The position numbers were made by a program. Of a stretch of 25,029 nt of DNA, positions 1 to 3,000 are shown one piece after another. Origin of the DNA: a virus (lineage: Duplodnaviria > Heunggongvirae > Uroviricota > Caudoviricetes); IMG/VR virus record IMGVR_UViG_2671180435_000002; one strand, 5' to 3'. Each line of letters opens with the position of its first letter. Within the stretch, counting starts at the first letter, position 1.

Positions 1-3000
1 TACACTAAATCAGTAAGTTGGCAGCATCACCAGCCTTCTTGAGGCTACCACCTGTTTTCAGGTGTCATTCAGACGTGATTTGCCCCAACAAGTTGCATGC
101 GTGACTATATTAAGACGACTTATAACCACCAAAACATTTGCTTTGCAAGCAAAAACAGTGACCATTGACTCTAAGAAAATTCCGATCTATTGTTAGGGTC
201 ATCAAAGTTACTTAACAGTATTCCGAAATGAAAATACAAAGCAAGCTAATTGTCTTATTAAACATTATTATTGCATTTATATTATTTGAGCTTTTAGCTC
301 AAAAATTTGGTTTGAGTACATTATTTTAAAGCAAGATAAACAATATCGGGNNNNNNNNNNNNNNGGCACTCTAGTTTTTATAATTAACAATTAAACGTCC
401 ATAAAATGTTATTTACTTTTCTTCGCTATTGTCATATCTTAATATAGTGGCTTACGCCACTCTACTTTCATCACATTTTGTACGTTTATGTACTCGCCAT
501 GAAGCTCTTTCATGGCGATTTTTTATTCTTAATCCAAGAACATACTCCCTACCTATAGCAAAATCACTTTTTTAACAAAAGAATAACGTATTTAGGTAAT
601 CATTACGAATTTACCCTATAGGTGCTACTGGCCATTCAATATCCGGTGCAGTTGATGTATCAACACGGTTCAGCAACACCCGATACTTTTTCCAAGCTTC
701 CAGCAACAAGGTTTCTTTCTCCGTTGCGATCTCCAGATCCACAGCATCCTGAAGCGGCGCTATATGCTCACTGGCTACCTGCATCAGGCTGTTTTTTGTT
801 TCTTCCGCCTCCCGGATCCGGAACAGTTTTTCTGCTTCCGTATCCTTCACCCAGGCTGTGCCGTTCCACTTCTGAAACTCCCCTTCCGGGGATAACCAGG
901 TGACATTTTCCGGTAATGAGCCGAGTTCAGAAATAAATAACGCGTCGCCGGAAGCCACGTCATAAACCGTTTTACCCCGATGATCTTCAACGAGATGCCA
1001 CGATGACTCATCACTGTTGAAAACAGCCACGAAACCAGCCGGAATATCTGGCGGTGCAATATCGGTACTGTTTGCAGGCAGACCTGTATGAGGCGGAATA
1101 TATGCGTCACCTTCACCAATAAATTCATTAGTTCCGGCCAGCAGGTTATAAATTTTTATGGTCCGTGCTTGTTCACTCATTCTGAATGCCATTATGCGAG
1201 CCTCACAATATAGTTAAATGCGATGTTTTTGACGGTGTTTTCCGCGTTACCAGCAGCGTTAACGGTGATGGTGTGTCCATGTGAACCAATCGCAACAGAG
1301 TGCGTATGAGCACCAATACCGACAGTATGCGCGTGTGCACCCGCAGATGCTGCTGTGCCGGACAGTGAGTGTGTATGGTTTCCTTCTGAAGATGATTTAC
1401 CTACCCATTGGGAGGTGCCACTGGTTAATGAGCCACTGATACCAACCTGATTAGTCCCGCTAACTTGAGTACTCCCTGCCGGAAACATTCCAGTAGGTTG
1501 ACTCCCGCTATTCGTTCTGGGCCCAGTCTGACTATGTTGGTGGGCCCCAGCTGAACTTGTAGAGCCGCTCAGACTGTGCGTATGCGCCCCGGTGTTATTC
1601 GTGGATTTAGTGCCGTAATCAAACGACGATGTGGTTTTCGTCCCCAAATCCGTACTGGATGCGCTGGCGCTGTGGGTGTGCGATTTAATGCCATCCTGTT
1701 CCTGAGACAATACGGCACGACCACTGGCGGGCTTGCCCTTAATCGTCCAGCCACGCATATCAGGGATCACGCCTGACGGATAAGCGGCTGCAAGTTTCGG
1801 GTAAGCAGATTTGTCAAAAGTCTGCCCCTGCATCAGGGCATAACCAGACGGAACGGTATCTGATGGCCACGGGATTGGTGCACCGACTGGATAAAACTCT
1901 GCAGGAGGATGAGCCGAGGTGTAAAGCTGCGCCCACGGCGACCAGTTTGCGTCGGTCGTATCCCGTCGTGAACGAATAAATGCCGGAGCATGAGCACCGC
2001 TTGTACCACTCCAGCCGATGAGTAACTCACCTTCGCCAACGGCTGTCATCCCTTTCAGGTGAATGATATTTCCATACGCTGTTGGATATCCGTTGTTATA
2101 CACCTCGTATAACTCAAGACCTGCTGCCCCCTGCGTATTGTCTGTCAGCGCGGCTACCCGACCTTTTGAAGCCAGATTAACTGATGATACTGCTGTTCCA
2201 CCTGACGGTAGCGCCCCGATCTCTGATGCCGTTGGCTTATTTCTGGAGTTATAGTCCCTTCGCCAGCCAGGTGAATAATCTGTTCCGTGATTAATATAGG
2301 TAAACTGGGCGTTGGTTGTTCCGCCACCGCTGGATGTGGTCGGAGTGGTAATGCGGATCGTCATCGCTGACTTTATCCCCATTACTTCAATGACAGCTCC
2401 GGCGAGATGAATATTACCGCAGCCAGTATCAGTAATGATTTTATTATTGCCATAAGACCAGGAACCCTTGCACATCCAGTATGGATGGTTAAATGCTCCC
2501 TGAGAATCCAGCCACTCGATAAACTGTGCAGTCGTCCAGTTTCCTGTTGTTGTGCTTACTGACCCACCGAAGGCACGGCAGGCACCAATATTTTTCGTAA
2601 AGGTGTCTTTGCCAGGGATATCCGCACCGTTCTGATCTTTCTGCAGACGTTTCTCAGCATTGTCATTGGCTGCTTTTACTGCCTTTGGCGTTGCCGCCAG
2701 CGTTTCAGACGTGCTGTTGGTCGCGCTGCTTAGCTGGATTATCCCTTTCTGTGCTGTCGTTGCATCCTGTGCGGTGTATTTCCCGTTAGCCAGGTCATAC
2801 GCGGCCTTAACGGCTTTTGGTGTTGCCGCCAGTGACTCGGAAGTGCTGTTAGTCGCACTACTGAGCTGTACTATCCCCTTTTTCGTCGTGCTCGCATCCT
2901 CAAGCGCCACGGCGGATGCAATATCCTCTGCCCGTTTTGCCGCTGTCTCAGCGCGCGTTGCTGCAGATTCCGCCGTACTTTTGCTCTGAGCTGCTGCCGT

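What the first reader, a model, noticed from the sequence alone, without database searches (positions are those of the whole stretch)
1..31. IS1 end abuts the region downstream of tfa
The first 31 bases are an IS1 left inverted repeat, with the element lying outside the window. It is inserted about 580 bp past tfa, where lambda would carry the b region leading to attP and int. The insertion may have truncated or replaced the distal prophage cargo and could mobilise adjacent DNA.
Basis: partly seen in the sequence, partly recalled or inferred. Interest (0 to 1): 0.4.

Follow-up and report, generated by a model that had tools for sequence, protein, structure and literature searches.

The report
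IS1 end at a prophage's far arm
The first 31 bases are the end of an ordinary IS1 insertion sequence in the non-essential arm of a lambda-like prophage of Shigella sonnei; only 31 bases show because the short-read contig broke at this repeat, and the insertion is old, shared with E. coli prophages and accompanied by small adjacent deletions.

Summary
Confirmed and ordinary. Window 1-31 is an exact reverse-complement match to the left (insA-proximal) end of IS1, with no match in 100 shuffles. Ten Shigella sonnei chromosomes or long contigs are identical or nearly identical to the window over 11 kb. In all ten the sequence continues leftwards into a complete 768-bp IS1, 765/768 identical to K-12 IS1A. 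The element lies 579 bp past tfa in the window and 749 bp in every relative, because the window alone lacks 185 bp at 87/88.

It is not a simple insertion. No target-site duplication is present. Compared with IS1-free relatives (phages mEp332, PhiR70_1 and ev099, and E. coli RM10410), 743 bp are replaced in S. sonnei. The lost DNA holds a fossil serU attachment junction and the upstream region of an AraC-family gene.

The same IS1/flank junction occurs in at least 79 complete E. coli genomes, while the other junction differs between lineages. This fits one old insertion followed by IS1-adjacent deletions. The rest of the distal arm survives beyond IS1: an AraC pseudogene, IS2-like fragments, intS and argW.

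The window also ends 32 nt into IS2, so it looks like a whole short-read contig bounded by repeats.

The parts
1..31 (-). Outer 31 nt of IS1 (IS1 positions 1-31). The classical 23-bp IRL is window 9-31, and the rest of the 768-bp element lies left of the window.
   Evidence: Exact match to the IS1 IRL end with no match in 100 shuffles. Identical to K-12 IS1A 1-31. Continues into a full IS1 in S. sonnei loci L005-L014.
32..87 (.). 56 bp of phage DNA directly abutting IS1. It is the remnant of the arm next to a fossil serU-type attachment core; the core itself lies 110 bp further left in IS1-free relatives and is deleted here.
   Evidence: 100% identical to L004 7001-7056, L002 2501-2556 and L003 7001-7056. 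The serU core ends at L004 6890. The same arm lies near the end of an unrelated prophage beside uspF (L018).
87..88 (.). Breakpoint of a 185-bp deletion private to this window (1-nt microhomology).
   Evidence: All relatives carry 185 bp here: L001 6088-6272 and L005 11091-11275. All 13 IMG/VR contigs with the junction carry it too. The deletion junction was not found in genome contigs or metagenome contigs.
165..329 (+). Possible small transcription unit: a promoter-like site at 165-193 and a 33-aa hydrophobic ORF at 228-329 (MKIQSKLIVLLNIIIAFILFELLAQKFGLSTLF). Function unknown.
   Evidence: No Pfam family. The promoter count is no higher than in shuffles, so this is weak.
351..364 (.). Run of 14 N. 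Together with the following GG it makes 16 bases that relatives do not have.
494..528 (+). Strong terminator-like hairpin (11-bp stem) followed by a T-run, on the plus strand and so convergent with tfa.
   Evidence: 2 terminator-like sites found against 0.3 expected in shuffles.
611..1192 (-). tfa, tail fibre assembly protein (193 aa).
   Evidence: Pfam Caudo_TAP, E=4.6e-44. RefSeq annotation of homologues.
1192..4281 (-). Side tail fibre gene stf.
   Evidence: ORF list. Homologues annotated as prophage tail fibre.
24998..25029 (-). The last 32 nt of the window are the right end of IS2. The window is therefore bounded by IS ends on both sides.
   Evidence: 32-nt exact match to the terminus of K-12 IS2A.

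Best explanation
The window is a contig of a lambda-like prophage of Shigella sonnei, with the late genes Nu1 to tfa on the minus strand. Its left end stops 31 nt inside a full-length, apparently functional IS1 (IS1A-like). The contig stops there because short-read assemblers break at multicopy repeats; the right end likewise stops 32 nt inside IS2. The IS1 sits in the non-essential arm between tfa and the phage's integration module. The order is tfa - 579/749 bp - IS1 - AraC-family gene - IS2-like fragments - intS - argW. The insertion is old. The identical IS1/flank junction in the same orientation occurs in S. sonnei and in lambda-att prophages of at least 79 complete E. coli genomes, so it was inherited with the phage DNA and did not arise in this strain. 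It is not a simple insertion. No 9-bp duplication flanks it, and DNA present in IS1-free relatives is missing. The tfa-side (IRL) junction is constant between S. sonnei and the E. coli O78-type prophages, while the far (IRR) junction varies. This is the signature of IS1-promoted adjacent deletions, meaning intramolecular transposition from one end, or alternatively of recombination between two nearby IS1 copies. Shown: identity of the end, full IS1 in relatives, absence of a duplication, the missing DNA and its content, and junction sharing and variation. Inferred: the order of events, and that the window's own genome carries a complete IS1.
For: Exact IRL match. S. sonnei identity: loci from CP023645.1, CP019689.1 (S. 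sonnei 75/02, PMC5447701), LR213458.1 and others show 0-5 mismatches with the window over 11.1 kb. Full IS1 at L005 11332-12099: 768 bp, 765/768 to K-12 IS1A, A6C frameshift motif at position 305, insA and insB Pfam hits, and annotated as an IS1A-family transposase with programmed frameshift in E. coli relatives. No duplication: the flanks are AAGAAGGCT and AATTGGGTG in S. sonnei and GCCAATAAG and AGCCTTCTT in E. coli O78, whereas a second IS1 7 kb away has a clean 9-bp duplication TACCTAATG. Missing DNA in coordinates of IS1-free L004: 6451-7000 in the O78 type, 6258-7000 in S. sonnei, 6215-7118 in the F404 type. Counts among 5426 complete E. coli genomes: 79 with the IRL junction, 102 with the O78-type IRR junction, 831 with the uninterrupted site, and none with a simple insertion plus duplication. 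Free phages mEp332, PhiR70_1 and ev099 carry the uninterrupted arm. Contig-break reading: the window ends 32 nt into IS2, and 3 of 13 IMG/VR contigs with this junction also stop exactly 31 nt into IS1.
Against: The window itself holds only 31 nt of IS1, so a truncated or solo end in the source strain cannot be formally excluded. The source strain differs from every relative by the 185-bp deletion and the N-run, so it is not one of the closed genomes examined. No intermediate (an insertion with a duplication) was found, so the order of events is inferred. The F404-type junctions differ on both sides and could come from an independent insertion rather than from further deletions.
Confidence: 0.9

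Rival explanations
1. A recent, simple IS1 insertion in this strain, flanked by an 8-9 bp target-site duplication, with nothing lost.
For: IS1 is highly active and very abundant in S. sonnei. A neighbouring copy in the same loci is a simple insertion with a 9-bp duplication.
Against: No duplication occurs in any of the three junction types. Between 550 and 904 bp are missing compared with IS1-free relatives. The same junction is shared with at least 79 E. coli genomes. A synthetic query for insertion plus duplication found no genome.
Confidence: 0.02
2. The deletions were made by homologous recombination between two IS1 copies inserted near each other in the same orientation, not by transposase-driven adjacent deletion from a single copy.
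For: The end product would be identical: one IS1, no duplication, and the intervening DNA lost. S. sonnei loci carry a second direct IS1 copy 6.2 kb further out, which shows that such substrates exist. In LR213458.1 the far side of the IS1 is joined to distant chromosomal DNA.
Against: It needs two independent insertions within 550 bp for each junction type. No genome with two copies flanking this stretch was seen. One junction being constant while the other varies is more economically explained by one-ended events.
Confidence: 0.25
3. In the source genome the 31 nt are a solo or truncated IS1 end, or the join is an assembly chimera, not the edge of a complete element.
For: Only 31 nt are visible. 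The window has private oddities (a 185-bp deletion and an N-run) that show it is not identical to the closed genomes.
Against: 10 of 10 S. sonnei loci and the E. coli loci read (L001, L016) show a complete IS1 at this junction. Stopping about 31 nt into a repeat is what k-mer assemblers do, and the other end of the window does the same in IS2.
Confidence: 0.04

Closest known systems
IS1 (IS1A/IS1-like elements of E. coli K-12 and Shigella)
   Same: Window 1-31 is identical to IS1A 1-31. The element at this site in relatives is 768 bp, 99.6% identical to IS1A, with IRL/IRR, insA, insB' and the A6C frameshift site (IS1 features as summarised in PMC12903888).
   Different: No flanking 9-bp duplication at this copy. 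Only one end is visible in the window.
IS1-promoted adjacent deletions (classical gal/lambda work of Reif and Saedler, 1975; cited from my own knowledge)
   Same: IS1 is retained, one junction is fixed, the other junction lies at variable distances, and flanking DNA is lost without a duplication.
   Different: Inferred here from comparison of natural genomes and not observed experimentally. IS1-IS1 recombination gives the same product.
Lambda b region (non-essential arm between tfa and attP) in lambdoid phages such as mEp332, PhiR70_1 and ev099
   Same: Same position downstream of stf-tfa. It holds dispensable cargo (an AraC-family regulator and IS fragments) and ends at the integration module.
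   Different: No sequence similarity to lambda's own b-region genes was looked for. In S. sonnei the arm ends at intS/argW, not at a lambda-type attP. The free phages lack IS1.
CPS-53/KpLE1-type IntS integration module at argW (E. coli K-12)
   Same: A 385-aa integrase with Arm-DNA-bind_3, Phage_int_M and Phage_integrase domains lies next to tRNA-Arg(CCT), yfdC and mlaA.
   Different: Here it is attached to a full lambda-like head and tail gene set, not to the short K-12 remnant (my knowledge of K-12; not compared directly).

Membership tests
IS1 family insertion sequence | Terminal inverted repeat with the IS1 IRL sequence (GGTGATGCTGCCAACTTACTGAT...) | tested here: met
   Window 1-31 matches 31 of 31 on the minus strand, with no match in 100 shuffles. 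Identical to K-12 IS1A.
IS1 family insertion sequence | Complete element of about 768 bp ending in IRR | tested here: met
   Not visible in the window. In loci with an identical flank: L005 11332-12099 is 768 bp and 765/768 to IS1A, and the same holds in L001 and L017.
IS1 family insertion sequence | insA and insB' reading frames joined by a -1 frameshift at the A6C motif | tested here: met
   TTAAAAAAC at position 305 and an intact InsA translation. Pfam Zn_ribbon_InsA, HTH_Tnp_IS1 and DDE_Tnp_IS1. RefSeq annotates a programmed frameshift. All of this is in relatives, not in the window.
IS1 family insertion sequence | 8-9 bp direct duplication of the target flanking the element | tested here: not met
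   Flanks differ in all three junction types, while a control IS1 copy nearby has TACCTAATG on both sides. This is explained by loss of adjacent DNA. It bears on the history of this copy, not on its family.
IS1-mediated adjacent deletion | IS retained; DNA next to one end missing relative to an uninterrupted allele; junctions nested between lineages | tested here: met
   L004 6451-7000, 6258-7000 and 6215-7118 are missing in three lineages, all with IS1 in the same orientation.
IS1-mediated adjacent deletion | Transposase-dependent and recA-independent formation | not testable with these tools
   Needs an experiment.
Lambdoid prophage b-region equivalent | Lies between the tail-fibre genes (stf, tfa) and the integration module (att, int) | tested here: met
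   tfa and stf lie at 611-4281. Beyond IS1 in relatives lie intS and argW or a lambda-like sib/attP P arm next to ybhB-bioA (the lambda attP sequence was recognised from memory).
Lambdoid prophage b-region equivalent | Dispensable for phage growth | tested here: inconclusive
   Isolated phages carry the arm in variable forms and natural deletions of 550-904 bp exist, but viability of the IS1-bearing forms was not shown.

The most novel reading that the evidence does not exclude
The arm beyond tfa in this phage lineage is a stack of successive integration modules. It holds a serU-type core with 278 bp of captured host DNA, then IntS/argW, or only the last 84 bp of intS followed by a lambda-type sib/attP. 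The IS1 would be a passenger of still-viable phages that carry it between E. coli and Shigella and keep eroding and re-joining the integration end. If so, the IS1 junction marks an active site of attachment-module turnover and not a dead scar.
Probability: 0.2. Interest if true: 0.35.

Novelty: already known. Interest (0 to 1): 0.1.

Why it matters
It matters little beyond annotation. IS1 is the most abundant insertion sequence in S. sonnei, and IS-bounded contigs are the norm in its short-read assemblies. The practical lesson is that the left and right ends of this window are assembly breaks at IS1 and IS2, not biological ends of the prophage. The check does show that this IS1 copy is an old, inherited scar shared by Shigella and E. 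coli prophages. It removed a fossil attachment site and sits 15 nt from the start codon of an already frameshifted AraC-family gene. In at least one strain the same copy is the breakpoint of a larger rearrangement that removed the prophage's integrase end and argW.

Tried and rejected
(1) I searched the species-representative genome collection for the window's private 185-bp deletion junction and for the IS1/flank junction. Both gave no hit, presumably because Shigella is represented there by one E. coli genome.

(2) I searched metagenome contigs for the deletion junction and found nothing.

(3) I looked for a genome with a simple IS1 insertion plus a 9-bp duplication at either junction, using synthetic queries. 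None was found. One record (H128) had an IS1 end about 215 bp from the site and was not followed up.

(4) An Rfam scan of window 1-1300 found only IS009 inside tfa, and nothing in 32-610.

(5) A Pfam scan of the 33-aa ORF gave nothing.

(6) A tRNA scan of the IS1-free relatives found no intact tRNA, which confirms that the serU piece is only a 3' fragment.

(7) I tried to recover the window's right-hand continuation through the DUF1398 protein. This returned other E. coli prophages, not the S. sonnei locus.

(8) I considered whether the far-side join in LR213458.1 came from the second IS1 copy 6.2 kb away. The flank is yfcU-like and not that copy's flank, so the question stays unresolved.

Full report
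OBSERVATION

Window 1-31 reads TACACTAAATCAGTAAGTTGGCAGCATCACC. Its reverse complement, GGTGATGCTGCCAACTTACTGATTTAGTGTA, is the outer 31 nt of IS1. It occurs once in the window with no mismatch, and none of 100 dinucleotide-preserving shuffles gave a match. It is identical to positions 1-31 of IS1A of E. coli K-12.

This is the insA-proximal end (IRL). IRR reads GGTAATGACTCCAACTTATTGAT and agrees with IRL at 18 of 23 positions. The outermost IS1 base is window 31, so the element lies to the left of the window on the minus strand.

tfa is the ORF at 611-1192 on the minus strand (Pfam Caudo_TAP, E=4.6e-44). It is preceded by stf (1192-4281), a truncated lom, J and a full lambda-like tail and head gene set up to Nu1.

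WHERE THE WINDOW COMES FROM, AND THE LEFTWARD EXTENSION

A look-up of the exact Tfa protein returned ten chromosomes or long contigs of about 4.8-5.0 Mb. Over the 11.1 kb that overlaps the window they show 0-5 mismatches. One of them, CP019689, is Shigella sonnei 75/02 (PMC5447701).

In all ten, the DNA left of window position 1 continues as a complete IS1. In L005 it spans 11332-12099. It is 768 bp long and 765/768 identical to K-12 IS1A. It has an intact insA, the TTAAAAAAC frameshift site at position 305, and Pfam hits to InsA and the IS1 DDE domain. These are the IS1 features summarised in PMC12903888.

WHY ONLY 31 BASES ARE VISIBLE

The window also ends 32 nt inside the right end of IS2. 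Three of 13 IMG/VR contigs that carry the same IS1/flank junction also stop exactly 31 nt into IS1. The window (25,029 nt) is therefore best read as a complete short-read contig that broke at multicopy repeats on both sides. Its ends are assembly ends, not biological ends.

WHAT IS BEYOND THE IS1

In S. sonnei the order is as follows:
- tfa
- a 749-bp spacer
- IS1
- an AraC-family gene
- two fragments of an IS2-like element, 73% identical to IS2
- intS (385 aa, a tyrosine integrase with an arm-binding domain)
- tRNA-Arg(CCT) argW
- yfdC
- mlaA

Several E. coli prophages have the same arm but only the last 84 bp of intS. That fragment is followed by a lambda-like sib hairpin and attP P arm, then ybhB-bioA, which is the lambda attachment site. 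I recognised the lambda attP sequence from memory.

The integration end of the prophage is still there behind the IS1.

NOT A SIMPLE INSERTION

The 9 bp on the two sides of the element differ:
- AAGAAGGCT and AATTGGGTG in S. sonnei
- GCCAATAAG and AGCCTTCTT in E. coli O78 strain 3

A second IS1 about 7 kb away in the same loci has a clean 9-bp duplication, TACCTAATG, which serves as a positive control.

IS1-free relatives exist: the isolated phages mEp332, PhiR70_1 and ev099, and prophages in E. coli RM10410 and 31B19CPO010B. Aligned to RM10410 (L004), the IS1 replaces different stretches in different lineages:
- L004 6451-7000 (550 bp) in the O78 type
- L004 6258-7000 (743 bp) in S. sonnei
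- L004 6215-7118 (904 bp) in E. coli F404

IS1 has the same orientation in all three. The tfa-side (IRL) junction is the same nucleotide in S. sonnei and the O78 type, while the far (IRR) junction differs.

Among 5426 complete E. coli genomes:
- 79 carry the IRL junction
- 102 carry the O78-type IRR junction
- 831 carry the uninterrupted site
- none carries the insertion-plus-duplication that a simple event would leave

The IS1 counts are lower bounds, because a limit on reported pieces per record was reached in about 370 IS1-rich genomes.

The most economical reading is one old insertion, inherited with the phage DNA, followed by IS1-adjacent deletions. These would be intramolecular transposition from one end, a classical property of IS1 that I cite from my own knowledge. 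Recombination between two nearby IS1 copies would give the same product and cannot be excluded.

WHAT WAS LOST

The replaced DNA is non-coding in the annotated relatives. It contains 340 bp that are 97% identical to the E. coli K-12 chromosome: 278 bp of the yodB-serU spacer plus the 3' 62 nt of tRNA-Ser serU.

In a prophage integrated at serU (L003), this is the real phage/host junction. K-12 homology stops at exactly the same nucleotide there, and the DNA from that point to tfa is the same as in the window. Window position 32 therefore lies 110 bp from a fossil attachment core. Phages that now integrate elsewhere, including free phage mEp332, still carry that fossil junction with captured host DNA.

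In S. sonnei the deletion also brings IRR to 15 nt before the ATG of the AraC-family gene. That gene in addition has a 1-nt deletion at nucleotide 409 and is a pseudogene.

REARRANGEMENT POTENTIAL

In S. sonnei LR213458.1 (L014), the tfa-side junction is unchanged. The far side of the IS1 is joined to the C-terminal part of a fimbrial usher gene, followed by chaperone, fimbrial, smrB-like and aroC-like genes. The AraC gene, intS, argW, yfdC and mlaA are absent from that position.

PECULIARITIES OF THE WINDOW

All 23 relatives read across this point carry 185 bp that the window lacks between positions 87 and 88, with 1-nt microhomology at the breakpoint. The deletion junction was not found in two large collections. 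The 14-N run at 351-364, with the following GG, corresponds to no bases in relatives. I cannot tell whether these are real strain differences or artefacts of the assembly.

VERDICT

This is a correct observation and an essentially correct interpretation of an ordinary feature. IS1 is the commonest insertion sequence of S. sonnei, and the mechanisms involved are textbook. The only mildly interesting by-product is the layered history of the phage's integration arm.

Noticed in passing
window 24998-25029: The last 32 nt of the window are the right end of IS2, about 170 bp after a DUF1398 gene (24404-24829). In relatives the lysis genes follow here, so the prophage is interrupted by IS2 on this side. 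The window looks like a whole short-read contig bounded by IS1 and IS2.
   Followed up: partly
window 87/88: A 185-bp stretch present in all 23 relatives read across this point (S. sonnei, E. coli, free phages, IMG/VR contigs) is absent from the window. The junction was not found in genome or metagenome collections.
   Followed up: yes
window 351-364: A run of 14 N followed by GG has no counterpart in relatives, which read CGGGCACTC straight through. It may be a masked insertion or a scaffold gap; the cause is unknown.
   Followed up: partly
L004 6551-6890; L002 (phage mEp332) 2051-2388; deleted in the window's lineage: The arm beyond tfa in IS1-free relatives, including isolated phages, carries 278 bp of the E. 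coli yodB-serU spacer plus the 3' 62 nt of serU (97% to K-12). This is a fossil prophage/host junction with captured host DNA, in phages that now integrate at the lambda site or at argW.
   Followed up: yes
L001 3400-3610; L005 13561-14954: Lambda-att relatives keep only the last 84 bp of intS, fused to a lambda-like sib/attP arm. S. sonnei and E. coli F404 have the complete intS next to argW. The same arm is thus attached to two different integration modules, with the joint inside intS.
   Followed up: partly
L005 12102-12860: The AraC-family gene beyond the IS1 is a pseudogene in S. sonnei: a 1-nt deletion at nucleotide 409, and IS1 lies 15 nt before its start codon. It is intact (247 aa) in E. 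coli relatives and free phages.
   Followed up: yes
window 228-329 (+), with hairpin 494-528 (+): A 33-aa strongly hydrophobic ORF (MKIQSKLIVLLNIIIAFILFELLAQKFGLSTLF) lies upstream of a strong plus-strand terminator-like hairpin, convergent with tfa. It may be a small membrane peptide. It has no Pfam or Rfam match.
   Followed up: partly
window 4374-4856 (-): lom is truncated: 160 aa matching positions 1-159 of the 199-position Ail/Lom profile. The region is about 84 bp shorter than in E. coli O78 strain 3.
   Followed up: partly
window 651-849 (-): An Rfam IS009 match (218 bits) lies entirely inside the tfa coding sequence. It probably reflects how that family was defined and not a separate RNA gene here.
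   Followed up: no
L014 (LR213458.1) 12100 onward: In one S. sonnei genome the far side of this IS1 is joined to a fimbrial usher fragment, and intS, argW, yfdC and mlaA are missing from that position. This is an IS1-associated deletion or rearrangement of the prophage's integration end.
   Followed up: partly
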